Shown one piece after another: positions 16,006-31,150 of a stretch of 64,000 nucleotides of DNA. The stretch comes from a virus. A model generated the notes under the pieces. The model had not been told where the DNA came from, made no database searches, and saw only the letters and a list, made by a program, of their open reading frames with translations. The stretch's first letter is position 1, and each line of letters starts with the position of its first letter. The stretch is taken from positions 1 to 64,000 of the IMG/VR virus record IMGVR_UViG_3300017991_000009; one strand, given 5' to 3'. Position numbers and translations under genes: made by a program.

Positions 16006-16089
16006 GGGTTGTTCGCCTGTCCCTTGATGCCCTTTCGAGTAGAGGGCATCAAGGGGCAATGGAGCCCCCAACAACGTCAGAGGTGACAA
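16006..16089 (+). ncRNA. Structured intergenic element E1 (degenerate copy)
   Basis: GGGTT..[TGTCCCTTGATGCCCT/AGGGCATCAAGGGGCA stem]..ATGG-AGCCC, then CAACAAC and GAGGTGAC before the ATG. Confidence 0.6.
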
Positions 16090-16305: not shown

Positions 16306-16406
16306 TGGATAAGGATAAAGACAAGCTGGACTTTGCGGATTTCATCGGTATCTATATCTCGATCGTGATTCTCATCACGATCGCCGGTCTGCTACGCGGC
16401 TGTTGA
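16305..16406 (+). CDS. 33-aa membrane peptide
   Basis: GGGAGG RBS; single hydrophobic helix; coupled to the upstream stop. Confidence 0.5.
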   Translation: MDKDKDKLDFADFIGIYISIVILITIAGLLRGC

Positions 16407-16478
16407 TTGTTGCTAGGGCTCACCCACTGGGTGGGTCCACTGGAGCAATCAAGCTCCCAACAACGAATGAGGTGACAC
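16403..16478 (+). ncRNA. Structured intergenic element E2
   Basis: TTGATTGTT-GCTA-[GGGCTCACCC/GGGTGGGTCC]-ACTGG-AGCAATCAA-GCTCC-CAACAAC..GAGGTGAC. Confidence 0.8.
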
Positions 16479-17660
16479 ATGACGACAAGAGTGAAGAAGC
16501 AACGCAAGCCCGCTCCCAAGCTGTCGGTGCAGGACAAGCTGACCAAGCTCCGCGAGGAGATGAACGAGGCGCTGGTGGAGAGGACGGACGAGGTAGACGG
16601 CCTCTTGGTGGCCCTGCTGGCCCGGGAGCATATGCTCCTGTTGGGCCCTCCAGGGACGGCTAAGACGCTGATGGTGGAGCTTGCCAGCAAGGCGATCGAC
16701 GGGTCGTCGTATTTTTACTGGTTGATGTCGAGGTTCACGGTGCCCGAAGAGTTGTTCGGGTCGTTCAGCCTGAAGGCCCTCAAGCAGGACAAGCACGAGA
16801 GGGTCACCGGCGGCAAGCTCCCCGAAGCCTCGATCGCGTTCTTGGACGAGGTGTTCAAAGCTAACTCGGCAATCCTTAACAACCTGTTGACGCTGATCAA
16901 CGAGCGAAAATTCCACAACGGCGGCCAGGCACTCGACGTCCCCCTGGAGACGATGGTTGGGGCGAGCAACGAGCTACCAGAATCAGGCGAGTTGGACGCC
17001 CTCTACGATCGCTTCCTGCTGCGCTACTGGACTTCGTACATATCAGACCGCGGGGCGTTCAAGGATATGTTGATGAACGGCGAGCCGATGATCTCCACAA
17101 CGCTGACGATGGCGGAGCTACAGGCTGCGCAGGAAGAGGCCGACCAGGTGGTCATCACCGAGGACATCCTCGACCTTCTGGTTGAGGTAAAGCAGGCTAT
17201 CGAGAAGGCGGGCTTTCTATGCAGTGACAGGCGATGGGTCAAGTGCTTGTGCCTGCTGCAGGCACACGCTTACCTGAACGGTCGGAGCGAGGTGACGGAA
17301 GAGGACCTGATGCTACTTCGTCACATCCTCTGGAAGGAGCCGAAGGACAGAGGGGAACTGGGACGGGTGATCGCGAAGGTAGCTAACCCGCTGGCGCACG
17401 AGTGCCAGGTTATCCTGGATGCGTGCAAGGAGACGTACAGGGAGATCCCCTTCAACGAGCAAGTGGAGGAAAGCAGGTCGGCAGAGGTCTTCACCCAGGT
17501 AGTGGAGGCCAACGGGCAGTTCAAGCAGGCGGTGGAGAAGTTGAAGAAGCTTGCTAACGGCAAGCGGAGCGGGGTGGTGGAGAGTGCGGTTGACGAGATC
17601 GAAACCATGATGACCGAGGCCGGCCGGTTTGCTGGCAAGGTCAGCGGGCTTTCTATCTAG
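16479..17660 (+). CDS. MoxR/RavA-family AAA+ ATPase
   Basis: LLGPPGTAKT, SRFTVPEELFG, FLDEVFKANSAILNNLL, GASNELP, LYDRF, SDRRW. Confidence 0.95.
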   Translation: MTTRVKKQRKPAPKLSVQDKLTKLREEMNEALVERTDEVDGLLVALLAREHMLLLGPPGTAKTLMVELASKAIDGSSYFYWLMSRFTVPEELFGSFSLKALKQDKHERVTGGKLPEASIAFLDEVFKANSAILNNLLTLINERKFHNGGQALDVPLETMVGASNELPESGELDALYDRFLLRYWTSYISDRGAFKDMLMNGEPMISTTLTMAELQAAQEEADQVVITEDILDLLVEVKQAIEKAGFLCSDRRWVKCLCLLQAHAYLNGRSEVTEEDLMLLRHILWKEPKDRGELGRVIAKVANPLAHECQVILDACKETYREIPFNEQVEESRSAEVFTQVVEANGQFKQAVEKLKKLANGKRSGVVESAVDEIETMMTEAGRFAGKVSGLSI

Positions 17661-17743
17661 GTACCAATGTTGCAACCTGGCCCTTCAGAAGAGGGGCCAG
17701 TGTGGAGCAGTGGTGCTCCAACCAACCCAACAGGAGGTGACAC
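17661..17743 (+). ncRNA. Structured intergenic element E3
   Basis: GTACCAATGTT-GCAAC-[CTGGCCCTTC/GAGGGGCCAG]-TGTGG-AGCAGTGGTGC-TCC..GGAGGTGAC. Confidence 0.8.
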
Positions 17744-18895
17744 ATGGCAACGAAAGCACAGTCAGAGATCAACCGTATCGCGAAGGCTATGGCCAGCACG
17801 GACGCGCCCCACATCGGCAGTATCTGTATGTGGACGCTTACGGGCTGCAGGATCAACCGAGACGACTTGATCAAGCTGTACAAGAAGCACGGCCTGGACG
17901 AGGCTTGGTTGCCCCCAGAGATTGAGGGCAGCGTGGCCTTCACTAAGGCTTTGCGATGGGCGCAGCGTGGCGATCGGCAGGGCTACATGATTCGGCCGAT
18001 CGACGACACCAAAGAGGCAATCATCGTGGGCATTGTGAAGGAGGACGTGGACAAGCCGAAGGAAGACCTGGCCTACGGCGTCGAGGCGAAAGTGAAGTAC
18101 AACAAGGAGCACGAGTCGGTGCAGGTAACTGATTCAAAGCACCCCCTGGCAGGTCGCATCAAGGCCTTGTTCACGGAGATGCAGGAGGCGTACATCGGCC
18201 GGGACTTCACGAGGATGCTCACCAGGAACATTGCCAAGCGGATGGGGTCTATCTGTTTGCGGCACACGGGTGGCGTCTACTTCGTTCCTGTACATCACAC
18301 CGAGACACTGCTGAAACACAGGGCGGTGATGTCGGAAATCGGCGCCGAGTTCTCGGTGCTGCCGGTATATGGGAACGACCTCTCCAAGGAGGACCTGGGG
18401 AAGCAGGCGCGACGCGCGTTGGAAGAGGAGATCAAAGAGGTGGAGGCGGAGATCCAGAAGTTCAAGGAGACCGCCCCGCGCGGCGATACCCTCAAACGCC
18501 GGCTGGAGGAGTTCAAGGAGTTGAAGAAGCGGGCGCAAATGTACGCCCAACTTCTCCAGATCAAAGTGGTCGACATCAACCAGGGGCTGGGGGACTGCGA
18601 AAAGCAGATCAAGGCAATCCTGGGTGTAGTCGAGAAGGAGAAGGGTGAGAAGAAGGGCCGCCGGCGTAAGACGGAGAAGAAGGATACGGAAGCGGTGCCG
18701 AAGGTCAAGAACGTAGTGAAGTCCAGGAAGAAGGCTCCAGCGAAGAAGGCAACGAAGAAAACCCCCGCCAAGAAAGCACCGGCAAAGAAGGCGCCGAAGA
18801 AGAAAGTCCCCGCCAAGAAGAAGGCGCCAGCCAAGGCCAAGGAAGAAGTGATCTCTGATACCGGCAAGGTGAAGATCGTGAAGGTGAAGAAGTAG
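17744..18895 (+). CDS. Coiled-coil protein of the MoxR/VWA cluster (DUF6744-like) with a histone-like PAKKA tail
   Basis: LR.TGGVYFVP motif; position between AAA and VWA genes; KKAPAKK repeats. Confidence 0.6.
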   Translation: MATKAQSEINRIAKAMASTDAPHIGSICMWTLTGCRINRDDLIKLYKKHGLDEAWLPPEIEGSVAFTKALRWAQRGDRQGYMIRPIDDTKEAIIVGIVKEDVDKPKEDLAYGVEAKVKYNKEHESVQVTDSKHPLAGRIKALFTEMQEAYIGRDFTRMLTRNIAKRMGSICLRHTGGVYFVPVHHTETLLKHRAVMSEIGAEFSVLPVYGNDLSKEDLGKQARRALEEEIKEVEAEIQKFKETAPRGDTLKRRLEEFKELKKRAQMYAQLLQIKVVDINQGLGDCEKQIKAILGVVEKEKGEKKGRRRKTEKKDTEAVPKVKNVVKSRKKAPAKKATKKTPAKKAPAKKAPKKKVPAKKKAPAKAKEEVISDTGKVKIVKVKK

Positions 18896-18972
18896 CTTGA
18901 GTGTTGCTAGAGGGCACCATCTCTGGTGCCCTCACTGGAGCAATCAAGCTCCCAACAACCAGAGGTGACAAT
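18894..18972 (+). ncRNA. Structured intergenic element E4
   Basis: AGCTTGAGTGTT-GCTA-[GAGGGCACCA/TGGTGCCCTC]-ACTGG-AGCAATCAAGCT-CCCAACAAC..GAGGTGAC. Confidence 0.8.
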
Positions 18973-20424
18973 ATGGGCAAATTATCTAGAGAGGACCTGG
19001 TGTACAAGGTATCTCGTTGGCAGCGGTACCTGTACGACAGTGAGCGGGATCATAACAAGGGCCTGCAAGCTGCGGAGAAGGATGGCAGGGGCCGGGCGAA
19101 TCGGTACCCCGACTATCAGCGGGAGTTGTTCTCTAGGCTTTACAACCCGCGCACCAAGAAGTTGGACGAGCCCGCGGCCGACAGTGAGTGGGCCCAGAAG
19201 CTTCACGGGACGGCCGAGGGGGTGCCGGAGTTCAAGGTGCTGCAGGACAGGTGCAAGGGCGACGAGGTTTGGTCTGGGATGGCCACCACCACCCTGAGTA
19301 AGCAGGTGTCGGCCACGATGGAAAAGAGGCAGTCGAAGGAGGACATCCCCGACCTGGAGCGGCGAGTGCAAGGGCTCTCCGACCTGATGTCAAAAGGGGT
19401 GCAGGTGGGTAAGAGGCTGAAGGCTGCCCAGAAGCGGTTGGAGAAGGCGAAGGCTGAGGCACAGGAGATGGCCGAAGGTCTTGACCCGGTAGCTTTGAGG
19501 CAGGCCATCAGGAAGGGGTGCGAGCAGGCGCAGGAAGAGATCGGAGAGATGGATAAGGCAGTTGAGTCGTTCAGCTACGGTACGGAGCCTGGGGCGCCGG
19601 CGAGGCTGGGCAACGCAGAGGCAAAGCGGAAGCTTGCCAAGCGGATCAAGGCGAGCCCCAAGCTTTCCAAGATAGCGGAGCTTGCAGGGCGACTCAGGCG
19701 GGTGGCAGCGGAGAAGCAACGCAGCAAGGCGAGTGACAGCAGGAGCGAGGTCACTGATATTGAGCAGGGCAACGAGATCGATCGCCTGCTCCCCAGCGAG
19801 TTGATGGACTTGCTCAACGGGGGCGGGGGCGAGAGGGAGTTGATGTTCTATTCCCGCTTCTTGGATCGGCAGTGCTTGCAGTACAAGCTGTCGGGCAAGG
19901 AGAAAGAAGGTAGAGGGCCGATCGTCATCTGTATGGACGAGTCGGGCAGCATGGGTGGTGACCGAGAGGTGTGGGCCAAGGCGGTGGCGTTGGCCCTGCT
20001 CGAGGTCGCTAACAGGCAAAAGAGAACGTGGGCGTTTGTTCACTTCGACACCAGAGTGACCCGCACCGATGTGGTGCCCCATGGGAAGATCGACACCGCG
20101 GCCCTGATGGACTGTATGGAGCACTTCAGCGGGGGCGGTACAAGCTTTCAGGCACCGCTAGATCAGGCGGTAGAGATCATCAGAGGCGATAGTGAGATGA
20201 AGAAGGCAGACGTTCTCCTGGTTACCGATGGTTACTGCTCAACCAGCGACGACTGGGACAAGACGTTCGCCAGGAAGAAGGAGGAGTTGTCGTTCCAAGT
20301 GTTCAGCGTGATGGTGGCCATGGGTGGCGGCAGCTATGGGTCGGTGGAGAAGTGGAGCAACCAGATCTTCCCGATCAACGAGTTGCTGGAGGACAAGTTC
20401 CACGATGTGATGTTCAGTGTTTGA
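18973..20424 (+). CDS. VWA-domain protein (ViaA-like partner of the MoxR ATPase)
   Basis: RLLPSEL, MIDAS motif GPIVICMDESGSMGG, GGGTSF, ADVLLVTDG; start reassigned to ATG 18973 after the RBS. Confidence 0.92.
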   Translation: MGKLSREDLVYKVSRWQRYLYDSERDHNKGLQAAEKDGRGRANRYPDYQRELFSRLYNPRTKKLDEPAADSEWAQKLHGTAEGVPEFKVLQDRCKGDEVWSGMATTTLSKQVSATMEKRQSKEDIPDLERRVQGLSDLMSKGVQVGKRLKAAQKRLEKAKAEAQEMAEGLDPVALRQAIRKGCEQAQEEIGEMDKAVESFSYGTEPGAPARLGNAEAKRKLAKRIKASPKLSKIAELAGRLRRVAAEKQRSKASDSRSEVTDIEQGNEIDRLLPSELMDLLNGGGGERELMFYSRFLDRQCLQYKLSGKEKEGRGPIVICMDESGSMGGDREVWAKAVALALLEVANRQKRTWAFVHFDTRVTRTDVVPHGKIDTAALMDCMEHFSGGGTSFQAPLDQAVEIIRGDSEMKKADVLLVTDGYCSTSDDWDKTFARKKEELSFQVFSVMVAMGGGSYGSVEKWSNQIFPINELLEDKFHDVMFSV

Positions 20425-20499
20425 TTGTTGCACCCCTGGCCACCACTAGCTGGTGGCCAGTATGGAGCAATCAAGCTCCCGCAAACAGGAGGTGACGAT
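20421..20499 (+). ncRNA. Structured intergenic element E5
   Basis: TTGATTGTT-GCACCC-[CTGGCCACCA/TGGTGGCCAG]-TATGG-AGCAATCAA-GCTCC..GGAGGTGAC. Confidence 0.8.
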
Positions 20500-21105
20500 A
20501 TGATGCACCCAACACACAAAGGGTACGTGGTCAACAATTACACTGCACTTGTCAACGAAAAGGGACAAGCGCAGGTAACGCTCCCGAAGGGAAGCCACTT
20601 CGATCTTGAGAAGGGGCAGATCTTCGGGCTCACTGGGGCAATGGCAATCTGGAACGGTGAGCCACCGCCTTGGTGCGCCTCAGTGGTCAGGGTCAAGGGC
20701 GCAACCGAGCCCTGGGCTGATCTGCCGAAGCGGGCCAAGACCGTCCTGTGGTGCAGGGAGGAGCTTCCTGATTCGCTTGCACGCGAGTTGGATTCCCTCT
20801 CAAGGTTCTTTGGGGATGCATGCTTTGACCTGGCGGACAAGTGGACCTACCCGGAGAAGTGGGCAGAGTTGAAAAAGGCTGGTGTGAGGGACATCAAGGG
20901 AGCCCTGGCCGATGAAATCTACAACGACGTGAATGCGGCGGAGGACCTCTTGGGGGACCAAATGCACAACGCCTTCTACTCTTCAGGGAACAAGGACAAG
21001 CTGAACCTCTTGTGGAACAAGGCAGCGAGGTATGTTGCCGACACGCTCCCGCATATCAAGGGCCTGTTTGCTCGCCTCGCTCAAGGGGAGGTGTGCAATG
21101 CCTAG
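20500..21105 (+). CDS. Hypothetical protein
   Basis: Strong RBS at the end of E5; typical codon usage. Confidence 0.7.
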   Translation: MMHPTHKGYVVNNYTALVNEKGQAQVTLPKGSHFDLEKGQIFGLTGAMAIWNGEPPPWCASVVRVKGATEPWADLPKRAKTVLWCREELPDSLARELDSLSRFFGDACFDLADKWTYPEKWAELKKAGVRDIKGALADEIYNDVNAAEDLLGDQMHNAFYSSGNKDKLNLLWNKAARYVADTLPHIKGLFARLAQGEVCNA

Positions 21106-21391
21106 CCGACGATATGTTCCACTGCACGAACACCTTGCGATTGAGTACGCCAAGAACGACCTCGGATATTCCAGCCCGGAGGTCTATGGGAACCAGCTTG
21201 ACCCGCAGGTGAGGGAGATCTCGGCGGTGTGGTTGAGGGATCAAGACAATCCCGACTACGACATTGGGTTGATAGTTCACACCAAGGACGGAGTACTGGA
21301 GGAGTTTGACCCAGCTATCGACGGGAAGCCCGGTGAGTTACAATCAGGTAGTAACTGCGACTTATCGCGGATGCGGATGGAGGTATACTAA
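21098..21391 (+). CDS. Hypothetical protein
   Basis: GGAGGTG RBS; overlaps the upstream stop. Confidence 0.65.
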   Translation: MPSRRYVPLHEHLAIEYAKNDLGYSSPEVYGNQLDPQVREISAVWLRDQDNPDYDIGLIVHTKDGVLEEFDPAIDGKPGELQSGSNCDLSRMRMEVY

Positions 21392-21582
21392 TGGATCCGG
21401 ATGCGAACCTGAAGGAGCAGTTACAACTTGCTGCCGCGCTTGAGGACGTGGACTACGATCAACTGGACGAGAACTCGAAGGAGGCGGCCATCTCAGATGC
21501 CTGCCGCTTGGCCGAGCTTGTCCTGGCCCTCGACGAGTGGATCTCAAAGGGTGGGTTCCTGCCCAAGCTTTGGAGTAGGTGA
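21391..21582 (+). CDS. Small phage protein (MDPDA.L...ALDEW.SKGGFLP..W type)
   Basis: TAATG coupling; GGAGG RBS. Confidence 0.7.
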   Translation: MDPDANLKEQLQLAAALEDVDYDQLDENSKEAAISDACRLAELVLALDEWISKGGFLPKLWSR

Positions 21583-21672
21583 GTGTTGCTCGAGGTCGTT
21601 AGCTTATCGTACTCTGATAAGCTAACGGTCTCCCTGGAGCACTTACGCTCCCAACAACGAAAGAGGTGGCAT
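21579..21672 (+). ncRNA. Structured intergenic element E6; its upper stem contains palindrome copy 2
   Basis: GTGAGTGTT-GCTC-[GAGGTCGTTAGCTTATC/GATAAGCTAACGGTCTC]-CCTGG-AGCACTTAC-GCTCC-CAACAAC..GAGGTGGC. Confidence 0.8.
21600..21624. repeat. Dispersed 25-bp palindrome, copy 2
   Basis: TAGCTTATCG-TACTC-TGATAAGCTA. Confidence 0.9.
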
Positions 21673-22299: not shown

Positions 22300-22530
22300 C
22301 TGTATATACAGAGGTGAAATCCTGCAAACCAAGCACACGACCTAAGTTATCGAAAAGTATAAACAAAAACTGCTGACAATCTATTATCTGGTATATAGCA
22401 CATAGAACATTGATCTTAGATCTTTGATCTTTCCTTCTTTTTATTTGTAAAGAAGAAAAGAAAATATAAGGAAGAAAATATAAAGATACATAGCAATAGA
22501 ATATATACGGTTACGTGTATATACACCAAA
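22300..22530. promoter_or_regulatory. Very AT-rich non-coding tract bounded by TGTATATACA palindromes (promoter or origin candidate)
   Basis: T-rich then A-rich runs at 22420-22500; TGTATATACA at 22301 and 22516. Confidence 0.55.
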
Positions 22531-22545
22531 CCCAGGAGGTGACGA

Positions 22546-22962
22546 ATGAAAGTGAGCACAGCATACAACCACAGGGAGCGTGCACTGCAAAGCCTGGCGG
22601 AGATGTATCAGCACGCTAGGATGTTCGGCATGACCGCGCAGGCGATGAACGAGAGGCGGGTCGAGATCCTAAAATCGATCAACCACTGCCCAGGATGGGT
22701 GCTCTCGTACATCTCAGGATGGGAGAGGGCGATCTCGGCAGAGGTCTACCGTGAGCAGGTCTTCTTCTACACGATGCCCGATGGTTCCCTGGTGAGCAGT
22801 CACAGAGATCGTGACGACTACTACGAGAAGAAAGGCTGGGGCCCGAGGGAGGTCTACGAGCAGGCAATCGAGTGCGGGCACTACTGGATCATCAACGGCA
22901 AACCGAAGCCGTATTCGGTTAGCCCTAACGAGTACAAGAAGGAGGTGGCGAATGCTGGATAG
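22546..22962 (+). CDS. Hypothetical protein
   Basis: AGGAGGTGAC RBS. Confidence 0.75.
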   Translation: MKVSTAYNHRERALQSLAEMYQHARMFGMTAQAMNERRVEILKSINHCPGWVLSYISGWERAISAEVYREQVFFYTMPDGSLVSSHRDRDDYYEKKGWGPREVYEQAIECGHYWIINGKPKPYSVSPNEYKKEVANAG

Positions 22963-23407
22963 GAAAGCGGGATGCAAGTCCCGATCATCGTGCGAGATGC
23001 GTGAGTGGCTAGACAGTCTCCGGGACGAGTTGGAGAGGTCGTCCGCTCTCGCTTCAGGTGTGCACAAGTTGGCAAGGCAGACGCTTGCCATCATGGACTT
23101 CATCCGCGGGGTGGAGCACAAGGAGGAACTCGGTGGGGCTCACCCCGACCTGCTTGACTTGAAGATGAAGTACGCACACAAGAACGAGCAGGGCCAGGTC
23201 GAAGGTGTGGAACTCGATCTCAGTGAGGCCGGGCTGTCCATGATGGTGGCCCTTGAGATCCTGATGCCGATGTTCGTCTTCCTCATGGACTCGCTGCAGG
23301 AGTGTGACGCCCAGGCTCAAGACCTCTACCGGGCGGTGGAGAAGTTCAAGGTGGTGAAGCAACACATGGCCTCACCAGAGGCGGACCCGGAAGACCGCCC
23401 TAACTGA
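22952..23407 (+). CDS. Hypothetical protein
   Basis: AAGGAGGTG RBS before ATG 22952. Confidence 0.65.
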   Translation: MLDRKAGCKSRSSCEMREWLDSLRDELERSSALASGVHKLARQTLAIMDFIRGVEHKEELGGAHPDLLDLKMKYAHKNEQGQVEGVELDLSEAGLSMMVALEILMPMFVFLMDSLQECDAQAQDLYRAVEKFKVVKQHMASPEADPEDRPN

Positions 23408-23440
23408 TCGCCCAGGTGGTGACATCGTGTGCACCAGATT

Positions 23441-23479
23441 GCCCCCGGCCTTCCTTCGTGGAGGGTCGGGGGCTTTTTT
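23441..23479 (+). terminator. Rho-independent terminator
   Basis: GCCCCCGGCCTTCC-TTCGT-GGAGGGTCGGGGGC followed by TTTTTT. Confidence 0.9.
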
Positions 23480-23644
23480 GCGTTTGGAGTGGTAAGATTA
23501 GATCACGGTGGTTGGTGCGAAGGTCTGGCACTTTGGGAGAGCCCTCCAGCCCTGTCCCTCGTTGTCGGTACTCTCCGACGCACCAGCGGGGCTCTCCTTT
23601 CCCTTGAGAAAATAAAGCTTGCATTTGCTTTAAGGCCATGATAT

Positions 23645-23785
23645 CCAAGGCGCTGGTGATGTTATGAAACAGCGATCATCAATACATAATTCCAGCATTC
23701 GAGCGAACCAATCAGGGAGCGTTACACATCCCCGTAGCTGTGTTCATCGCATCACCAGCCTTGGTTGGTTCGCTCGAATGCTGGA
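23645..23785 (+). ncRNA. Structured leader of the DNA polymerase gene with two interleaved long stems
   Basis: 23691-23717 pairs with 23759-23785 (27 bp, 2 G-U); 23645-23673 pairs with 23737-23764 (about 25 bp with bulges). Confidence 0.7.
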
Positions 23786-23805
23786 GATCATAGCGGAGCG
23801 ACTGT

Positions 23806-26487
23806 GTGGCAAATGTGAAAGTGAAAGCGAAGGCTCAGCCAGAGCCGACAATCCAACGGCCCCTGAAGAGAAACCCCGACTGCACGCGATGCAAGCTCGG
23901 AGAGACGAGTCAAACTGTTTGCTGCAGGTCAGTAGGCCCCAAGCGCCCAGATATCATGTTGGTCGGAGAGGCCCTTGGAGCGAACGAGGAGATTCATTGC
24001 AGGCCTTTTGTTGGTGACGCCGGCCGCAAGCTGAACTACCTGTTGTCGAAGGCGAAGCTTAGACGCAAACGCCTCCGCATACGCAACACGGTTAGTTGCC
24101 GACCCCCAGGCAACGCTGCCCCCTCAAAGACGATCATCGAAGCGTGTTACCCGTACCTTTGGCACGACATCCTGGTTTCCAAGCCGAAGGTGATCGTTGC
24201 CTTGGGAAGCGTTGCTTACCGCGCCCTGGGTGCCTCGGTAGATGTGAAGGGTAAGCTCAAGATGGACACGCGCGGGGTCACTGACTGGCGCGGGTTCTAC
24301 GAGCAACGAACCATCATGTGGGACGCCCCGAACGGGAAGCACTACGAGCACACGTTCTGGATCGTCCCCACCTTCCATCCATCGGCCTGCCTTCGCAACT
24401 GGGAGAAGGACGACCTCCTCGTCCACGACCTGAAGATCGCCAAGGACCTCTCCGAGGGAAAGCAACCGCTGAAGTATCCAGACACCAAGGTAACCGTCAT
24501 CAAGACCAAGGAGGAGGCTATCCGCTTCCTGCGCCACCTGCGGAAGGTTGGTGCATTCGTAGTTGACTTAGAGACTGCAGGCTCCCCTGCTCGGCCGCAG
24601 GAAGCCCTCGACCCGCACCGTGCAAAGATCATGTGTGCGGGTTTTTGCTATCGGGATGGGCACGCGACTATCCTCCCCTTCTACCGGCAGAACCTGAAAC
24701 CCTACTGGACGCCGCGGGAGCGGAACGAGATCATCGAGGAGTTCACTGGGCTACTGGAGCACGCCAAGCTCTACGGGCAGAACATCAAGTTCGACATCAA
24801 ACACCTCCGAAAGCTCACCGGCTTGGTCGACTACAAGATCGGCTTTGACACGATGATCGCTCATCACGTGGTGGATGAGAACAAGCCGCATAACCTAACC
24901 TTCCTCTGCCAGTGGTACCTTCGTTGGTGGAAGTACGACTCGGCCCTCGACCAGTTCAAGTTCAGCAAGGGCAAGAAGACCATGTTCCGAGTCGACCTGG
25001 TCCCCGACCAGATGTTGTGGAACTACTGCGGGTATGACGTCGATGGCACCTGGAGACTCAGGCGCAAGCTGATCCCCCTCATCAACGAGGAGAAGGTAGC
25101 CAAGCCCTTTAGGGTGGAGCTTGACCTCACCGTCCCGCTGGCCGACGTGGAGTTCCGCGGGCTGCAGGGTGACAGGGCAAGGCTCCTGCAGTTGTCCGCG
25201 GTGTACCGCAAGCAGTCAGCGGCGATCGTCAAGAAGCTCCAGACGAGCGCGGTGAAGCTTCTGGGGGTGCGTAAGGTGAAGGGCAAGATAGAGCCCTTCA
25301 ACCCCAACAGCCCCAAGCAACTCACCGAGCTACTCAAGACCGCCGGCGCCGATCTCAGGAAGACCACCAAAGGGGGGAGCCTCGCCGTTGACAAGTACGT
25401 CCTAGCTGCACTTGCACTGAAGAAGAACAAGGCAGGCACTATCGCCAAGAACGTGCAGGAGCTACGCCGCTTGGGGAAGTACATCTCTACCTACCTGGAT
25501 GGCAAGGACGGTGACGAGGGGTTCCTGCAGTACATGGGAGAAGGTGACCGTTGGCACCCGACCTACAATATCACCAACGCTAGGACGCCCAGGCTGTCCG
25601 CTGATGACCCGGCGATCCAGACCGTCCCGCGTCTAATGGTGCTGCGGTCGATGGTTATCCCTGACAACGAGGAGTGCATGCTCATCGCGGTGGATTACGA
25701 GAAGATCGAGTTGTGCGTCATGTCGTGGTTGGCCAACGATGAGGTAATGGTGCAGGAGCTACTCGATAGGGTTGACCTGCACACCAAGATGGGCGTCACG
25801 GCGCGGTTGATGCGGAACCCCACGGACGAGGAGTTCAAGCGGATCGCTCCGATGATAAGTAAGGACGAGCGGGCCGTTGCAAAGGGCGTGAACTTCGGTA
25901 TTCCATATGGCCGCGGTGCTTATGCTATCGCCGAGGCGAACCCTGACGCCTTCCCAGGCACGATGCCAAAGAACGAGCGAACCGAGACGGTACAGAAGGT
26001 GATCAACGCCTTCTTTGAGAAGTACTGGGGCATCACGGAATACCGGGAGCGGGTTGTCCAACGGCTTGAGGACAACGGGCAACTCCGAGAGTACATGTTC
26101 CATCGGCTGCGCCGGTTACCGGCTGTCGATTGGTACAACTCGAAGTGGGGGATGGACACCGACCGCAGGGATGCTGACTTCGGGCACCTGAAGAGGGAGG
26201 CCCTCAACTTCGAGATTCAGGCATTGGCCACGCAGATACTGAACATGAAAACGAAGGTGGTCTATGATGGTATCCAAAAGGTGCGGATACCTGGCCTGCG
26301 TATCAACCAGAGCCTTCACGATGCTTTGATGTTCAACTGTAACCGCGCATACACCGACGAGGCCGTGCACCACATTACGGAGTGGATGGAGACGTCCTTG
26401 CCGAAAGATCGCAGGCACAAGTTTGAGATGCCCCTGAAGGTAGAGGCGCTGGTTCAGAACTACTGGGGAGAGGAATACTCCGCATAA
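23806..26487 (+). CDS. polA: Family A DNA polymerase with N-terminal family-4 uracil-DNA-glycosylase-like domain and 3'-5' exonuclease (SPO1-like architecture)
   Basis: CTRC..MLVGEALG..PFVGDAG..TFHPSA (UDG4); VVDLET, GQNIKFD, YCGYD (Exo I-III); DYEKIEL, R..AKGVNFGIPYG, LHDAL (Pol motifs A/B/C). Confidence 0.95.
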   Translation: MANVKVKAKAQPEPTIQRPLKRNPDCTRCKLGETSQTVCCRSVGPKRPDIMLVGEALGANEEIHCRPFVGDAGRKLNYLLSKAKLRRKRLRIRNTVSCRPPGNAAPSKTIIEACYPYLWHDILVSKPKVIVALGSVAYRALGASVDVKGKLKMDTRGVTDWRGFYEQRTIMWDAPNGKHYEHTFWIVPTFHPSACLRNWEKDDLLVHDLKIAKDLSEGKQPLKYPDTKVTVIKTKEEAIRFLRHLRKVGAFVVDLETAGSPARPQEALDPHRAKIMCAGFCYRDGHATILPFYRQNLKPYWTPRERNEIIEEFTGLLEHAKLYGQNIKFDIKHLRKLTGLVDYKIGFDTMIAHHVVDENKPHNLTFLCQWYLRWWKYDSALDQFKFSKGKKTMFRVDLVPDQMLWNYCGYDVDGTWRLRRKLIPLINEEKVAKPFRVELDLTVPLADVEFRGLQGDRARLLQLSAVYRKQSAAIVKKLQTSAVKLLGVRKVKGKIEPFNPNSPKQLTELLKTAGADLRKTTKGGSLAVDKYVLAALALKKNKAGTIAKNVQELRRLGKYISTYLDGKDGDEGFLQYMGEGDRWHPTYNITNARTPRLSADDPAIQTVPRLMVLRSMVIPDNEECMLIAVDYEKIELCVMSWLANDEVMVQELLDRVDLHTKMGVTARLMRNPTDEEFKRIAPMISKDERAVAKGVNFGIPYGRGAYAIAEANPDAFPGTMPKNERTETVQKVINAFFEKYWGITEYRERVVQRLEDNGQLREYMFHRLRRLPAVDWYNSKWGMDTDRRDADFGHLKREALNFEIQALATQILNMKTKVVYDGIQKVRIPGLRINQSLHDALMFNCNRAYTDEAVHHITEWMETSLPKDRRHKFEMPLKVEALVQNYWGEEYSA

Positions 26488-26500
26488 AAGGAGAGCGAAA

Positions 26501-26986
26501 GTGGTTGACCATAAAACCGCGATAGCAGACGAACTGGCGATCAGTGCCGACCTCAACCACGAGTTCAGCAAGCAGGCTGGCTCCTTTGCGCACTATGCGT
26601 TCTTGCTGGCGCGTGCCGAGGACTTAGTGAGACAACTGGAGGAGAAGGCCGAGCTACTGTTTGCCAAGCACTACCGGATCTACAGGCAGAAGAACCCCAA
26701 GGACAGCAAGGAGAACGACTGTAAGTCGTATATCCGCAGGACCCGCGAGTACCAGGAAGCGGTGAACGCCCTGCACAAGGCGAAGTACAACAGGGATATC
26801 CTGAAGGCTGGTGTGCGTGCCTTTGAGATGAGGCGCGACATGCTGATCCAACTCGGGGCGATGTTCCGCATGGAGTTGGATGGGACAGACCTGAAAACAC
26901 GTTCACTTCAATCGAAGGTCAAGAAGGCCACGAGGGTGGTCAGGAAGACCGCACGGACACCCCGCAGAAGGCGGAAAGGAGAGTAG
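26501..26986 (+). CDS. UvsY-like recombination mediator
   Basis: Helical protein with EYQEA...ILK..V.AFEMRRDML.QL pattern; precedes SSB and RecA genes. Confidence 0.6.
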   Translation: MVDHKTAIADELAISADLNHEFSKQAGSFAHYAFLLARAEDLVRQLEEKAELLFAKHYRIYRQKNPKDSKENDCKSYIRRTREYQEAVNALHKAKYNRDILKAGVRAFEMRRDMLIQLGAMFRMELDGTDLKTRSLQSKVKKATRVVRKTARTPRRRRKGE

Positions 26987-26991
26987 TAGCT

Positions 26992-28041
26992 ATGGCAACA
27001 CGGAGAAGGCCGGTCAAGAGGGAGGCCGCACGGAGATCGAGCAGTAAGCCAAAGTCGAGCCGCCGACGCCTGAATATGGATAAGGCGCGAAAGAAGCAGG
27101 AGGAGATTGACTCCAGGTCGAGTAGTTCCTTCCACGAGATCAAGGAGGGGTGGAACTACTTCTTCGTCATGCCCCCGTGGGATGACGACGTTGATGTGAT
27201 CTGGAAGGAGGTGCAGCAACACCGCTTCTTGGTGTGCCCCAGGCACGCAACGGAAGGCAAGAAGGACTGTATGATCTGCACCGAGCTACGGAAGACCAAA
27301 TCGTCCGAGTTCTCGGAGCAGTACGCCCTGAAGTCCCGCGGCTTCTTCAATGCCATCCGGAAGGCTGATATCAAGAAGAAGGACCCCGACACCGTTGGCA
27401 TCCTGGCGCTGAGTAGCGCGATCTTCCGCGAGGTGATCGACTACATCAACGATGAGGATAAGGACATCTCGGACCCCGAGGCCGCGATCCCCATCGGCAT
27501 CCACCGCCGTGGCAAGGGCCTGCGCACGCGCTACAAGATCAAGTTCGGTGAGGCGGTCAACATCTCGGCCTACCTGACTGACAAGATCATGGACGCCCTG
27601 CACAACCTGGACGACATGAAAGCGGCGCAGCCGGCCAGCGTGAAGGACATGCGCAAGGCAATCCGCGGCGCGGCCGACGATGACGACGACTTCGAGGATG
27701 ACGATCTCGACGGCGAGGAGGAGATCGATAGCGACGAGGAGTTTGACGGCGAGGACCTCGCGGAAGAGGATGACCTGCTCTCGGAGCCGGAAGAGGAAGA
27801 GCCCGAGGAGGAAGAGATCGAGGAAGAGGAAGAAGAATATGAGTTAGAAGACGATGGGGAGGAGCCCGAGGAAGAGGCAGAGGAGGAAGAGATTGAGGAA
27901 GAGGAAGATGAGTTCGAGCCGGAAGAAGAAGAGCCCCCGAGGCGGCGCAAGGCCAAGCCTGCTGGACGAGGGCGGGTACGCAAAAATAGTCGTGAACGCC
28001 CTGCCACCAAGCGGCGGAAGGTCAAGCGTAGGAGAGCTTAA
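26992..28041 (+). CDS. gp32-like single-stranded DNA-binding protein with long acidic tail
   Basis: IKEG.N...MPPW, H...CP..C.IC Zn site, DISDP, G.GL.TRY; D/E-rich C-terminus. Confidence 0.7.
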   Translation: MATRRRPVKREAARRSSSKPKSSRRRLNMDKARKKQEEIDSRSSSSFHEIKEGWNYFFVMPPWDDDVDVIWKEVQQHRFLVCPRHATEGKKDCMICTELRKTKSSEFSEQYALKSRGFFNAIRKADIKKKDPDTVGILALSSAIFREVIDYINDEDKDISDPEAAIPIGIHRRGKGLRTRYKIKFGEAVNISAYLTDKIMDALHNLDDMKAAQPASVKDMRKAIRGAADDDDDFEDDDLDGEEEIDSDEEFDGEDLAEEDDLLSEPEEEEPEEEEIEEEEEEYELEDDGEEPEEEAEEEEIEEEEDEFEPEEEEPPRRRKAKPAGRGRVRKNSRERPATKRRKVKRRRA

Positions 28042-28185
28042 CTACTGTACGTGGTGTGACGAGAAGATCACCAACTTCTGTATCGCTAGGACCGCTGAGT
28101 TTGACGGCCAGCGGCAGCGGATGGGGTTTTGCTCCTACAACTGTTTCACCGCGTGGTGCCACGCTAATGGAAGGAGGGCTTTCAA

Positions 28186-29721
28186 ATGAGACGCAGGCTT
28201 CTCGTCGACGTGTCGGGGCTAGCCTACGCGGCGGCTTACAAGGTGGACCTCTCCTACAAGGGGAAGAAGGTCAACGTCGTGTACGGCGTCCTGCGCACCC
28301 TGGAGAAGCTAGCCGAGAGCCTGGAACCCGAGGAGATGATCCTGTGCTTTGATGGTGGGAGTGAACTGCGGAAGGAGATCTATCCCGAGTACAAAGAGAA
28401 CAGGAAGAAGAATCCCAAGCATGAAGAGATGCGTCGAGAGGTCGCCCGGCAGCTACCCGTACTGCGGGGCATCCTCGACGCGCTCCCCGTGCTCCAGGTG
28501 CAGAAGGACGGATACGAGGCTGACGACCTAGTAGAGGCGATAGCCTCGTTCCTGCACCTGGAGCACGTGGGCATCGTGACAAAGGACCAGGACCTCTACC
28601 AGCTAGCAGAACCACCGAGGTGCGTCATATTCAACAAAGAGGGGGGCGAGGAGAAGTTGGCCCTGCGCCCCAAGCAATACATCACCTACAAGGTCTTGGT
28701 GGGTGACACGTCCGACAACATCAAGGGCGTGGATCAGATCGGCCCTGTCAACGCAGGGAAGCTGATCAAGCGGTTCAAGACCCTCAAGGGCATCATGGCT
28801 CATGCGAAGGAAGAGGGGAAGCTAGGGGCGATGCCTTACAAACAGGCCCTTACGAGAGTGCGGCGGAACCTCAAGCTTGTGCGGCTTGGTGACATCTTGA
28901 CAGGCGACGATCGGTCCTCAGTCGTGAAGAGTTATGCTCGGGCCCGCCTACTCAGGGGGACCAACAAAAAGTTACTGAGGGAGAGGCTGTTAGAGGTGGG
29001 TTTCTCCTCGTTCGTGTCGCGACTGTCGCGACTGATCACAACCTTCAAGTGCATGGAACGCACACCCAGGACGGCGCCTAATGAAGCGAAAGCGGACCAC
29101 CACAATAGTGAGGAACGTGGTGAGCGAAAGCGAAAAGCGGTATCCCATCGTCAGGAAGGTGGAGGGTACACCAGGATCATCGTTAAGGTGGTCGAAAGCA
29201 AAAGAAGCTGCCGAGAGGATCAAGGGTCTAAGCGAAGACCCGCCCAGGGCCCGCGCTACGCTCGCCGTATACGAAAGAAAGCACCTGTGGGCATGGCTCC
29301 ATCAGGCAAGCGACGAGGTGATAAGAGAGCTACTCGATCAGATAGCGGGGAAGGATCAGACGGCAGCGACAAGCGAGCTACGGTGGAAAAATGGCGTTGC
29401 AGAACTAAGGCATTTGCTAAGCGACTATCTTCTTCGCCGGAAGTACTACAGCGAGGGGAGCTACGGCGCCGGCAAGCCCTGTTCCTTCTGCAAGCTTTTC
29501 ACCAAAACGACGAAGGATGGGGATGGCTCCGACGACAATCAAGAAGGCGACTCGAGTTCGTGAGTTCGATGATCTCGGCGCTCGATAGCGATCCGGAGTA
29601 CGCCCCCGACAAGAAGGCGCTTGCCTTCCTGGAGAAGTTGAAGAACGACTACGCTTCTGAGATGCCTGATTGGATGCTAACCGACGAGGAGATCGAGGAG
29701 CGGCACGTAGATAGCCGATAG
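28186..29721 (+). CDS. 5'-3' exonuclease/flap endonuclease (PolI N-terminal-like) with C-terminal extension
   Basis: LLVD, FDGG..RKEIYPEYK.NR, GYEADDL, KDQDLYQL, LVGDTSDNIKGV..IGP. Confidence 0.92.
   Translation: MRRRLLVDVSGLAYAAAYKVDLSYKGKKVNVVYGVLRTLEKLAESLEPEEMILCFDGGSELRKEIYPEYKENRKKNPKHEEMRREVARQLPVLRGILDALPVLQVQKDGYEADDLVEAIASFLHLEHVGIVTKDQDLYQLAEPPRCVIFNKEGGEEKLALRPKQYITYKVLVGDTSDNIKGVDQIGPVNAGKLIKRFKTLKGIMAHAKEEGKLGAMPYKQALTRVRRNLKLVRLGDILTGDDRSSVVKSYARARLLRGTNKKLLRERLLEVGFSSFVSRLSRLITTFKCMERTPRTAPNEAKADHHNSEERGERKRKAVSHRQEGGGYTRIIVKVVESKRSCREDQGSKRRPAQGPRYARRIRKKAPVGMAPSGKRRGDKRATRSDSGEGSDGSDKRATVEKWRCRTKAFAKRLSSSPEVLQRGELRRRQALFLLQAFHQNDEGWGWLRRQSRRRLEFVSSMISALDSDPEYAPDKKALAFLEKLKNDYASEMPDWMLTDEEIEERHVDSR
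29081..29563 (+). CDS. Nested alternative-frame ORF inside the exonuclease extension
   Basis: 160 aa with globular helical composition where the outer frame looks low-complexity. Confidence 0.45.
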   Translation: MKRKRTTTIVRNVVSESEKRYPIVRKVEGTPGSSLRWSKAKEAAERIKGLSEDPPRARATLAVYERKHLWAWLHQASDEVIRELLDQIAGKDQTAATSELRWKNGVAELRHLLSDYLLRRKYYSEGSYGAGKPCSFCKLFTKTTKDGDGSDDNQEGDSSS

Positions 29722-29743
29722 CTTATCGGACTCCGATAAGCTA
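29719..29743. repeat. Dispersed 25-bp palindrome, copy 3
   Basis: TAGCTTATCG-GACTC-CGATAAGCTA on the TAG stop of 28186..29721. Confidence 0.9.
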
Positions 29744-29761
29744 TCCCAGTAGGAGCGAAAG

Positions 29762-29941
29762 ATGAGAGCAATCAAACCGAAAGTGGAGCTACTGCAGATC
29801 ACCCCCAACGGCGCGGAGGTGATCGGGTCCATCCTCTCGCAGGAGTGCCCCGCGGTGTTTGACCCGGAGAAGTACGCGGTGGACGTGCCGGGTCAAGCTT
29901 ACGTCACCTACTGCCAGGGTGAGGTGACTGATGGTTCGTAA
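29762..29941 (+). pseudogene. 59-aa ORF resembling fused N- and C-termini of ThyX (internally deleted remnant)
   Basis: AGGAG RBS; MRAIKPKVELLQITPNGAEVI joined to ILSQECPAVFD; absent from the supplied ORF track. Confidence 0.45.
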
Positions 29942-30854
29942 GTACAAAGGCCGTATCGTGCGAGAGGTGGAGCCTTCGAGCCAGATCGATCAGATAGTCG
30001 GGGCCCTCTCGAAGGTGTTGGGCTCCGACGCTGTCCACAAGGCTCGGGACTCTGACCTGGGAGAGCCCCGCATGTTTGTTCCTTCAGGCGTCCCCGACCT
30101 CGACCTGGTGTTAGACCGGGAGGGGCGAGGGTGGCCCGGGGGGCGTATCGTGGAGGTGTTCGGCGGAGAGGCTACCTGTAAGACCGGGCTTGGCTACGCC
30201 CTGATCGCCCAGGTGCAGAAGATGGGTGGTGACGGCATCCTCTACCCGGCTGAGGGCAACTGGGATGAGTGGCTGGCCGACCAGTACGGTATCGACCTGG
30301 ACAAGCTGGTGCTGGGTGATGACGAGACGGTAGAGGGTATCTTCGGCTCCTTCCACCGGAGCCTGCGTGTGATCGGCCGCAGGGGGCTCCTGGTTGGGAT
30401 GATCGATTCTGTTGCAGGCATGGCTACCCGCGACGAGTTGAAGGAGATAGAGGAGAAGGGGGAGATCAAACGGGACCGCGCGGCACAGATTCGGGCGTTG
30501 ATGTTGAGCGCTGCTCTCCGGAAGATGGGTGCACTAGTACCGAGAACCAACGCAATCCTATTCTGCGTGAACCAGGTGCGGGAGAACACCGACGTTACCT
30601 TCGGCGAGAAGACCAAGCCGCCAGGCGGCCGGGCCCTCAAGTTCTATGCGAGCATACGCCTCAAACTGGAGTCCCTCGGCAAGATCAAGCGCACGCGCCA
30701 GGGAAAGCAGTACGTCGCAGGGTTCAAGATCAGGATCACCGCGGTGAAGAACAGGTTGGCGCGGCCGTACCAGCAGGCGGAGATCGTCTTGGACTTCGAG
30801 CGTGGGTTACTCTCACTCGAGGAGGCCTCCAAGAGGAGCAGGAAGCGAAAGTGA
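29931..30854 (+). CDS. recA: RecA/UvsX-family recombinase
   Basis: PSG...LDLVL..GWPGGRIVEVFGGEATCKT, IDSVA, NQVRE, PGGRALKFYASIRL, VKNRLARPY. Confidence 0.93.
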   Translation: MVRKYKGRIVREVEPSSQIDQIVGALSKVLGSDAVHKARDSDLGEPRMFVPSGVPDLDLVLDREGRGWPGGRIVEVFGGEATCKTGLGYALIAQVQKMGGDGILYPAEGNWDEWLADQYGIDLDKLVLGDDETVEGIFGSFHRSLRVIGRRGLLVGMIDSVAGMATRDELKEIEEKGEIKRDRAAQIRALMLSAALRKMGALVPRTNAILFCVNQVRENTDVTFGEKTKPPGGRALKFYASIRLKLESLGKIKRTRQGKQYVAGFKIRITAVKNRLARPYQQAEIVLDFERGLLSLEEASKRSRKRK

Positions 30855-31150
30855 AAGAAGAGGACGACAAATCAGGCGCCCTGCGGAGGGTGCGCGGTCT
30901 TGCATCGATAGCTGGGGCGACGAGAAACCCCGCTATCAGGAGAGCTATGGCCGCGCGGATGTACTTCGAGGAGATGATCATCAAGTTCAGGCTCCTGGGG
31001 TACACCCAGGAAGAGATCGACGCCATCCTAGAAGAGGTGAGGCATCTCGGGCGGACTACTGTTCACAGCCCGCAAGCTTGGCTAAAGCAGGCGTTGATTG
31101 AAGCCAGTGAGGCCGCGGGGCGAGGAGAGAAGAGGAAGCCGTGGAAGTAG
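30851..31150 (+). CDS. Hypothetical protein
   Basis: GTGA coupling with the recA stop. Confidence 0.6.
   Translation: MKEEDDKSGALRRVRGLASIAGATRNPAIRRAMAARMYFEEMIIKFRLLGYTQEEIDAILEEVRHLGRTTVHSPQAWLKQALIEASEAAGRGEKRKPWK

What the first reader, a model, noticed from the sequence alone, without database searches (positions are those of the whole stretch)
23645..23785. Interleaved A-B-A'-B' long-stem RNA directly upstream of the DNA polymerase
Seen: B (23691-23717) pairs with B' (23759-23785) over 27 bp, and its only two deviations are G-U, which points to RNA-level selection. A (23645-23673) pairs with A' (23737-23764) over about 25 bp. A' and B' are contiguous and compete for CCTTGG. The element follows a terminator (23441) and a possible promoter (TTGCAT near 23619) and ends 20 nt before the polA GTG. 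Two interleaved stems this long are unlikely to form fully together. Inference: a co-transcriptional switch or giant pseudoknot controlling polymerase expression. The A'B' strand is also complementary to a B-end/A-start junction, so it could act as a splint for circularisation.
Basis: partly seen in the sequence, partly recalled or inferred. Interest (0 to 1): 0.75.

Follow-up and report, generated by a model that had tools for sequence, protein, structure and literature searches.

The report
Conserved long hairpin leader before phage polymerase
The messenger RNA for this uncultured phage's DNA polymerase and replication genes starts with an unusually long hairpin, and related phages keep the same shape with unrelated sequences, so it is a real new RNA control element whose exact job (probably RNA cutting or stability) is still untested.

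Summary
B/B' (23691-23717 / 23759-23785) is a 27-bp stem, 28 bp with a terminal G.U. It is the longest stem in the complete 95-kb phage genome and ends 20 nt before the GTG of a UDG-exonuclease-PolA gene. A/A' (23645-23673 / 23737-23764) is also real: about 26 bp with two bulges, competing with B for CCTTGG.

B/B' is conserved as a shape. Nine of 11 independent relatives carry an uninterrupted stem of at least 15 bp, with unrelated sequence, ending 4-26 nt before the polymerase start (P about 1e-12). Only 2 of 45 distant UDG-PolA phages have one. Non-Watson-Crick pairs inside the stems are 21 G.U against 1 A.C on the sense strand, so selection acts on the sense RNA.

Interleaved pairing between an upstream segment and the loop (A/A' type) recurs in 4 of 9-10 leaders. 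In the window, L007 and L012 it is the predicted fold before B' is made. All loops are C-rich.

No Rfam family matches. No RNA data exist, so the function is inferred. My best reading is a cis-acting dsRNA leader of the replication operon, probably a host RNase III processing or stability site. The switch/pseudoknot reading stays open; the circularisation idea has no support. Other notes in this scan report structured RNAs before polymerase genes of unrelated phages, but not this element.

The parts
23441..23480 (+). Intrinsic terminator closing the upstream gene block (14-bp G+C stem, T run)
   Evidence: stem also listed
23619..23647 (+). Candidate promoter TTGCAT-17 nt-TATCCA (weak -10); would place the RNA start near 23654, at the start of segment A
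   Evidence: Sequence. Not called by the sigma-70 scan. The same -35 with TAAAAT stands at 15502. Relatives show TTGnnn-17/18-TAnnnn at the equivalent place (read from the sequences; inference).
23645..23673 (+). Segment A: pairs with A'. It contains an SD-like GGTGA (23655-23659) and the ATG at 23664 of a 117-codon frame that reads through the hairpin.
   Evidence: pairing; ORF
23690..23717 (+). Segment B: 5' arm of the conserved long stem
23718..23758 (+). 41-nt loop, C-rich and G-poor. It holds AGCGTTACACAT (23718-23729, identical in the loop of relative L172) and most of A'.
23737..23764 (+). Segment A': pairs with A. Its last 6 nt (CCTTGG, 23759-23764) are also the first 6 nt of B'.
23759..23786 (+). 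Segment B': 3' arm of the conserved long stem
23795..23808 (+). Ribosome-binding site GGAG (23795-23798), 7-nt spacer, GTG start (23806) of the polymerase. All of it lies outside both helices.
   Evidence: The N-terminal codons GTG GCA AA. are shared with L004 and L005.
23806..26487 (+). UDG - 3'-5' exonuclease - family A DNA polymerase fusion (893 aa), first gene of a conserved replication module (pol, phrog_2058 protein, SSB, 5'-3' exonuclease, RecA-like)

Best explanation
The element is a cis-acting RNA structure in the 5' leader of the mRNA that begins with the DNA polymerase gene and continues through the replication module.

Its core is a long, nearly perfect double-stranded stem: 27-28 bp here, and about 20 bp or more in seven of ten leaders if one mismatch is allowed. 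The stem closes a C-rich loop of 16-93 nt and ends a few nucleotides before the ribosome-binding site. Only helix length, position and strand are conserved. The sequence is not.

That is the pattern expected for a factor that recognises the shape of dsRNA. My committed mechanism is that host RNase III cuts the stem, or at least that the stem acts as a 5' stabiliser and insulator. This would separate the replication-module message from upstream RNA and set its stability and translation yield. Segment A can pair with the loop before B' is transcribed, so it is most likely an auxiliary partner that modulates how fast or how completely the RNase III substrate forms.

Shown here: the structure, its conservation, its strand specificity and its position.
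Inferred: transcription of the region, RNase III cleavage, and any effect on expression.
For: 1. The stem is exceptional. It is the longest in the 95-kb genome, with z = -9.95.
2. Nine of 11 independent relatives have an uninterrupted stem of at least 15 bp within 200 nt upstream of the polymerase start, against 0.03 expected per leader (P = 1.3e-12). All eight relatives with at least 42% polymerase identity and available upstream DNA have one. The stem sequences are unrelated.
3. The close pair L004/L005 shows two double compensatory changes and one G.U to A-U change in the stem.
4. Negative control: only 2 of 45 distant UDG-PolA phage loci have a stem of at least 14 bp upstream.
5. Strand specificity: 21 internal G.U against 1 A.C (p = 1.1e-5). 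Stems are longer when read on the sense strand in 8 of 9 independent loci.
6. The 3' arm ends 4-26 nt before the start codon, with the ribosome-binding site just outside.
7. Downstream synteny is conserved and the upstream genes are not. L165, which has no intergenic gap, has no hairpin. The element therefore marks the head of the replication operon.
8. An idealised E. coli RNase III substrate is 22 bp, two A-form turns (PMC3867540). Seven of ten leaders reach about 20 bp or more when one mismatch is allowed.
9. The phage encodes no RNase III domain or dsRBD of its own, so a host enzyme would be used.
Against: - There is no RNA evidence at all. No RNA run holds this DNA, so transcription, 5' ends and cleavage are unobserved.
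- The host is unknown, so its RNase III rules (antideterminant pairs) cannot be checked.
- Three leaders have uninterrupted stems of only 15-16 bp (L003, L006, L012).
- Characterised phage RNase III sites (T7 R sites, my own knowledge) are usually interrupted by an internal loop and recur at many intergenic sites. Here the long stem is unique in the genome.
- The consistently C-rich loops and the recurrent upstream partner are not needed by a plain RNase III site. They hint at an additional or different function.
Confidence: 0.45

Rival explanations
1. Two-state leader or partial pseudoknot. A:A' forms first during transcription, and the more stable B:B' then replaces or strains it. The timing or the final knotted fold sets how much polymerase message is translated or survives.
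For: - Both helices are individually non-random.
- Nascent-length folds switch from A:A' to B:B' once about 12 nt of B' exist.
- The same order is predicted in L007 and L012, and weakly in L172.
- The cognate upstream segment is the best partner of its own loop in 4 of 10 leaders, against 1 of 10 expected (my binomial estimate about 0.01).
- Combining the shuffle tests gives about 2e-4 by my Fisher calculation.
- CCTTGG uses U and G exactly where its two partners differ.
Against: - Neither helix covers the ribosome-binding site or start codon, and loop-to-downstream pairing is not enriched.
- About half of the leaders show no significant A-type partner.
- In L172 and L005 the A-like segment overlaps the putative promoter, so it may not be in the RNA.
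- B:B' is about 15-28 kcal/mol more stable and shares only 6 nt with A:A', so no clear OFF state exists.
- All of this is in silico.
Confidence: 0.2
2. Protein operator. The long stem presents a C-rich single-stranded loop next to the ribosome-binding site as the binding site of a regulatory protein, either the polymerase itself or another phage or host RNA-binding protein. Binding represses or activates translation of the replication genes.
For: - The position directly upstream of the ribosome-binding site is typical of translational operators.
- Loops are C-rich and G-poor in 10 of 10 leaders, although the sense strand is G-rich overall.
- A 12-nt loop motif, AGCGTTACACAT, is shared by the window and L172. 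The related GTGACACAT occurs in L004 and L005.
Against: - No loop motif is shared by all leaders.
- Loop length varies from 16 to 93 nt.
- A stem of 20-28 bp is far longer than needed to present a loop.
- No candidate binder was identified or tested.
Confidence: 0.12
3. Leader-ORF coupling. A short or overlapping upstream reading frame starts in or next to A and is translated through the hairpin. The ribosome melts the stem and so couples polymerase translation, or message stability, to leader translation. A:A' pairing would hide the leader's own start site.
For: - A frame that starts at an upstream ATG and spans the hairpin occurs in 6 of 9 independent leaders, against 2.67 expected (P = 0.014).
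- In the window, L007 and L012 the SD-like G-run plus ATG lies in or beside A.
- In L012 the leader stop overlaps the polymerase ATG as ATGA.
Against: - There is no peptide conservation outside the close pair L004/L005.
- The leader stop falls anywhere from 4 nt before to 211 nt after the polymerase start.
- Three leaders lack such a frame.
- The window frame 23664-24017 has no Pfam match.
- The statistical support is modest.
Confidence: 0.1
4. DNA-level element. The inverted repeat acts as a hairpin or cruciform in single-stranded or supercoiled DNA, for example as an origin, a priming signal or a polymerase loading site next to the replication genes.
For: - It lies at the head of the replication module.
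- G.T is also the least harmful mismatch in DNA hairpins, so + strand ssDNA is not formally excluded by the 21:1 bias.
Against: - The tight, conserved distance to the start codon (4-26 nt) and the sense-strand specificity fit an mRNA role better.
- There are no iterons, no AT-rich unwinding tract and no GC-skew turn at 23.7 kb.
- Spacers of 32-93 nt between the arms disfavour cruciform extrusion (established knowledge).
Confidence: 0.05
5. Splinted circular RNA. A'B' aligns the 3' end of B with the 5' end of A, so that a 73-nt A-to-B segment could be ligated into a circle.
For: Only the geometry: A'B' is the reverse complement of B followed by A.
Against: - No cleavage signals, ribozyme or ligase association were found, and there are no Rfam hits.
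- A' abuts B' only in the window and L012. In L007 and L172 it lies elsewhere in the loop, so the 'nick' geometry is not conserved.
- No RNA data exist.
Confidence: 0.02

Closest known systems
RNase III processing sites of phage mRNAs (T7 R0.3-R18.5 sites, lambda N leader) and bacterial leader hairpins cut by RNase III (pnp, rnc leaders). Recalled from the literature; substrate rules from PMC3867540.
   Same: A long double-stranded RNA stem in a leader or intergenic position of a phage polycistronic message. It is recognised by shape, not sequence, has about two helical turns, tolerates G.U, and sits next to a gene start.
   Different: - This stem is almost perfect, without the internal loop typical of T7 sites.
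- It closes a large C-rich loop.
- It is unique in the genome rather than repeated between many genes.
- It has a recurrent upstream partner for its loop.
- Cleavage is untested.
Autogenous translational operator of T4/RB69 DNA polymerase (gene 43) mRNA (my own knowledge)
   Same: A hairpin just upstream of the ribosome-binding site of a phage replicative DNA polymerase gene, and a plausible point of translational control.
   Different: - The T4 operator is a 5-bp stem with a specific 8-nt loop bound by a family B polymerase.
- Here the stem is 27 bp, the loop is 41 nt, no loop sequence is conserved across the family, and the polymerase is family A with a UDG domain.
Leader pseudoknots and start-dependent alternative folds in T4 (gene 32 leader pseudoknot; early versus late transcripts of genes e, soc and 49) (my own knowledge)
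   Same: Interleaved or alternative pairings in a phage leader whose outcome depends on where and when the RNA is made.
   Different: - Those structures involve or occlude the translation start region.
- Here the ribosome-binding site and start codon lie outside both helices.
- The helices are several times longer than in any compact H-type pseudoknot.
Other structured RNAs upstream of phage DNA polymerase genes noted in this scan (e1-5857360, e1-5375985, e1-5404668, e1-5786508). These are unchecked AI notes on unrelated phages.
   Same: The theme is the same: a folded, family-specific RNA directly before the polymerase gene. One note describes a two-state hairpin leader and another describes C/U-rich loops.
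   Different: - The phages and polymerase families differ, as do the sizes (78 nt to 600 nt), and no sequence is shared.
- Here the loop shows no significant complementarity to the polymerase ribosome-binding site.

Membership tests
RNase III substrate (bacterial class 1 RNase III) | Continuous dsRNA of about two A-form turns (about 20-22 bp) | tested here: met
   The window has 27-28 bp. With one mismatch allowed, L004 has 20, L005 20, L007 29, L010 20, L011 21 and L172 25. L003, L006 and L012 have only 15-16 uninterrupted. Reference length: PMC3867540.
RNase III substrate (bacterial class 1 RNase III) | The sequence is transcribed and is cleaved by RNase III | not testable with these tools
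   No RNA run is listed for this DNA. Contigs of the four DNA runs laid were identical and carry no information on RNA ends.
RNase III substrate (bacterial class 1 RNase III) | No antideterminant base pairs in the proximal and distal boxes for the host enzyme | not tested
   The host is unknown (sediment and seawater metagenomes). The rules are known only for E. coli and a few other enzymes.
H-type RNA pseudoknot | Two interleaved helices joined by loops long enough for both to form together | tested here: not met
   The interleaving is present. However, there are 0 nt between A' and B', and only 16 nt between A and B to span a stacked helix of about 53 bp. Only partial co-existence is possible (geometric inference).
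Riboswitch-like or attenuator two-state leader | The alternative pairings decide access to the ribosome-binding site or formation of a terminator | tested here: not met
   GGAG at 23795-23798 and GTG at 23806 lie outside A, A', B and B'. There is no T run after B', and the terminator scan finds only 23441. Loop-to-downstream pairing is not enriched.
Riboswitch-like or attenuator two-state leader | Both alternative helices are conserved or covary in relatives | tested here: inconclusive
   B:B' is present in 9 of 11 relatives. A-type pairing is significant in the window, L007 and L012, borderline in L172 and L005, and absent in L003, L004, L006 and L011.
T4 gene 43-type polymerase translational operator | A short hairpin with a specific loop that overlaps or abuts the ribosome-binding site and is bound by the encoded polymerase | tested here: not met
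   The stem is 27 bp and the loop 41 nt. No loop motif is common to the family. The polymerase is family A. Binding is not testable here.
Intrinsic terminator | A G+C-rich stem with a short loop followed by a T run | tested here: not met
   The scan reports only 23441-23480 on the + strand. B' is followed by GATCATAGCGG.
Any Rfam family (release 15) | A covariance-model match | tested here: not met
   There is no hit with E up to 1 in 22500-25000. Eight relatives' loci gave only one chance-level snoRNA hit, elsewhere. No tRNA or tmRNA was found.
Replication origin or ssDNA initiation hairpin | Iterons or an AT-rich unwinding element, a skew turn, and no dependence on gene orientation | tested here: not met
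   No repeats other than the arms were found. Cumulative GC skew rises monotonically through 22-26 kb. The sense-strand bias is 21:1.

The most novel reading that the evidence does not exclude
The leader is a purpose-built kinetic device that recurs by design, not by sequence, in several phage lineages. An upstream G-rich segment carries the start site of a leader reading frame. It is first captured by the C-rich loop (A:A'), and is then released when the much longer B:B' stem snaps shut. This would time or meter translation through the hairpin and into the replication genes. Alternatively, RNase III excises the stem top with its C-rich loop, and that piece acts in trans. Either way, this would be a new class of co-transcriptional control for phage replication modules.
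Probability: 0.15. Interest if true: 0.65.

Novelty: new variant of a known kind. Interest (0 to 1): 0.45.

Why it matters
Almost nothing is known about how uncultured marine and sediment phages control their replication genes. This element has several features that make it a clean candidate for study:
- It has a defined position.
- Its conservation is strong and purely structural.
- It is clearly specific to one strand.
- It has no entry in Rfam.

It can be tested with simple in-vitro RNase III assays and reporter constructs. If the recurrent interleaved partner and the C-rich loop prove functional, it would add a new design of leader control in front of phage polymerase genes. This scan keeps meeting family-specific structured RNAs at that position.

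Tried and rejected
The roughly 30 further relatives seen as proteins (P0002-P0042) could therefore not be examined at the DNA level.
- The metagenome-contig scan was saturated by cellular Pol I and added no relative.
- Further viral-contig scans added only L172 and L165 with usable upstream DNA. L168, L170 and L173 are cut inside the polymerase gene.
- There is no DNA match in GenBank phages. The protein matches there are at most 26% identical.
- No RNA holder is listed for this DNA. Contigs of four DNA runs are identical to the window, so there is no strain-level covariation to use.
- There is no Rfam, tRNA or tmRNA match.
- Terminator reading of B/B': rejected, because no T run follows.
- Anti-SD reading: the C-rich loop does not pair significantly with the polymerase ribosome-binding region, and the window loop has no CUCC.
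- Link to the six-copy intergenic element at 16-21.7 kb: rejected. That element has different conserved boxes.
- The phage encodes no RNase III domain or dsRBD. The T7-type RNA polymerase search is uninformative because its control genomes also gave no hits.
- MAFFT alignment of the leaders gives no common sequence beyond the coding start and a short AGC(A/G)GA after the hairpin.
- Whole-element sense versus antisense folding energies do not discriminate. The stem mismatch count does.

Full report
WHAT THE WINDOW IS

The window is the first 64 kb of a complete 95,166-bp IMG/VR phage genome with direct terminal repeats. Almost all genes are on the + strand. Near-identical DNA occurs in sediment and seawater metagenomes.

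The finding lies in a 398-nt gap between an unknown ORF (22811-23407) and an 893-aa fusion of UDG, 3'-5' exonuclease and family A DNA polymerase (23806-26487). UDG-PolA fusions are a recognised phage polymerase type (PMC13697223). I did not test membership in that paper's subfamily.

The polymerase opens a replication and recombination module: a phrog_2058 protein, SSB, a 5'-3' exonuclease, a RecA-like protein, and SbcCD-like genes further downstream.

THE OBSERVATION

- B (23691-23717) and B' (23759-23785) pair over 27 nt. The only deviations are two G.U pairs on the + strand, and a terminal U.G gives 28 bp.
- The 97-nt hairpin folds at -56.7 kcal/mol with z = -9.95.
- It is the longest stem in the whole genome, 28 bp against 18 for the next.
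- A and A' have a 17-nt core. They extend to about 26 bp with two bulges and one mismatch.
- An RNA that ends at 23764 folds into A:A' at -41.6 kcal/mol, z = -4.46.
- A' and B' are contiguous and share CCTTGG. At the two positions where the partners A and B differ, B' carries U and G, the two bases that can pair with both.
- The terminator at 23441 is confirmed.
- The TTGCAT-17-TATCCA promoter is only a weak consensus match and the scan does not call it. The same -35 with a good -10 heads the other large non-coding region at 15502.
- GGAG (23795-23798) and the GTG (23806) lie outside both helices.

COMPARATIVE EVIDENCE FOR B:B'

The polymerase has about 40 relatives at 39-58% identity in the protein database. 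These gave 11 independent leaders with upstream DNA.

- Nine leaders carry an uninterrupted stem of 15-28 bp (G.U allowed) that ends 4-26 nt before the polymerase start. They are the window, L003, L004 (with its close relative L005), L006, L007, L010, L011, L012 and L172.
- The stem sequences are unrelated.
- The background rate of such stems in the same DNA predicts 0.03 per leader, so P is about 1e-12.
- The close pair L004/L005 differs in the stem by two double compensatory changes and one G.U to A-U change.
- L165 has no intergenic gap and no hairpin. L009 has a leader but no long stem.
- Of 45 more distant UDG-PolA phage loci (23-28% identity), only 2 have a stem of at least 14 bp upstream. 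That is the background level. The element is therefore specific to this polymerase clade.
- Genes downstream of the polymerase are syntenic in all relatives, while upstream genes are not shared. The hairpin belongs to the head of the replication operon.

STRAND AND MOLECULE

I defined each helix with both G.T and A.C allowed and trimmed the terminal non-Watson-Crick pairs. The nine independent stems then contain 21 G.T and 1 A.C on the sense strand (p = 1.1e-5). Stems are longer when read as sense RNA in 8 of 9 loci. Drift of a DNA palindrome would give both kinds equally. Together with the fixed distance to the start codon, this points to the sense transcript. Sense-strand ssDNA is not formally excluded.

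THE INTERLEAVED PARTNER

I tested whether the 100-120 nt upstream of each hairpin is complementary to its loop.

- Against shuffled upstream sequence, the window (p = 0.02), L007 (p < 0.004) and L012 (p < 0.004) stand out. L172, L005 and L010 are borderline. L003, L004, L006 and L011 show nothing. My Fisher combination of the values is about 2e-4.
- Against real but non-cognate upstream regions, the cognate one ranks first of ten for the window, L007, L012 and L172. My binomial estimate for this is about 0.01.
- Folding RNAs truncated just before B' gives A:A' as the closing helix in the window, L007 and L012. L172 shows it too, but without a significant z-score. Adding B' switches the fold to B:B'.

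The A-B-A'-B' layout is therefore a recurrent design, not a peculiarity of this window. It is not universal in the family, and the statistics are moderate. The two helices cannot both form fully: there is no linker between A' and B', and 16 nt between A and B cannot span about 53 stacked base pairs. Partial co-existence, or succession in time, is what remains.

OTHER SHARED FEATURES

- All ten loops are C-rich and G-poor, although every locus is G-rich on the sense strand.
- The window and L172 share AGCGTTACACAT in the loop. L004 and L005 have GTGACACAT in the 5' arm.
- The loop does not pair significantly with the polymerase ribosome-binding region.
- A reading frame that starts at an upstream ATG and runs through the whole hairpin occurs in 6 of 9 independent leaders, against 2.67 expected (P = 0.014).
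- In the window, L007 and L012 the SD-like G-run and ATG of that frame lie in or beside A. This is an unexplained lead.

WHAT IT IS NOT

- It matches no Rfam family, in the window or in eight relatives.
- It is not a tRNA or tmRNA.
- It is not an intrinsic terminator.
- It shows no origin-like features.
- It is not related to the six-copy intergenic element of the early operon.
- The phage has no RNase III domain or dsRBD of its own.

MECHANISM

Helix length, position next to the ribosome-binding site, and strand are conserved, while sequence is free. This is the signature of recognition by shape. The ubiquitous bacterial reader of dsRNA of about 22 bp is RNase III (PMC3867540).

I therefore commit, at about 0.45, to a cis-acting dsRNA leader that host RNase III cuts, or that at the least serves as a 5' stabiliser and insulator of the replication message. 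A would act as a modulating partner.

Rivals:
- a true two-state or pseudoknot switch (0.2);
- a protein operator presenting the C-rich loop (0.12);
- coupling to a leader ORF (0.1);
- a DNA-level hairpin (0.05);
- the splint/circle idea (0.02).

No RNA data exist, so transcription, cleavage and any effect on expression are all inferred.

VERDICT

This is a new, clade-specific structured leader. It is a variant of the known kind 'phage mRNA leader or processing hairpin', with an unusual recurrent interleaved partner. Interest is moderate.

Noticed in passing
window 16006-21672: The repeated intergenic element between early-operon genes is real. It has conserved boxes (TGATTGTTGC, a variable hairpin, TGGAGCAATCAAGCTCCCAACAAC), then AGGTGACACATG at some gene starts. 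It differs in sequence and layout from the polymerase leader.
   Followed up: partly
window 23664-24017: A 117-codon frame has an SD-like GGTGA 4 nt before its ATG, both inside segment A. It reads through the whole hairpin and 211 nt into the polymerase gene in another frame. Hairpin-spanning upstream frames are enriched in relatives (6 of 9 against 2.67 expected, P = 0.014).
   Followed up: partly
window 23718-23729 and L172 (reverse strand, loop of its hairpin): An identical 12-mer, AGCGTTACACAT, occurs in the hairpin loops of two phages whose polymerases are only 48% identical. The related GTGACACAT forms the SD-spacer-ATG context of early genes at 16472 and 17737.
   Followed up: partly
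window 28488-28567: A perfect 16-bp stem with a 48-nt loop lies inside the 5'-3' exonuclease gene (28186-29721). It is 18 bp if one A.C is allowed. It is among the longest stems in the genome.
   Followed up: no
window 23509-23519: TGGTTGGTGCG is a near copy of the B' core (TGGTTGGTTCG, 23762-23772). It could also pair with B. It may be chance.
   Followed up: no
window 23665-23638 (- strand): The only sigma-70-like promoter the scan calls in the gap is on the minus strand (ATAACA-16-TATCAT). It overlaps segment A and points away from the polymerase.
   Followed up: no
L010 2688-2776: A second long hairpin (15-bp stem, 59-nt loop) stands about 70 nt upstream of the leader hairpin of this AT-rich relative, so its leader carries two long stems in tandem.
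   Followed up: no
L012 2924-2944: Directly after the leader hairpin, CCCCTTTGGGGG can fold on itself and cover the G-rich ribosome-binding site of the polymerase. The upstream leader frame ends in ATGA, overlapping the polymerase ATG.
   Followed up: no
window 23806-37428: The module order is conserved: UDG-PolA, phrog_2058 protein, SSB, 5'-3' exonuclease, RecA-like, SbcD/SbcC-like, and ParB-methyltransferase. The first four genes are syntenic in all relatives examined.
   Followed up: partly
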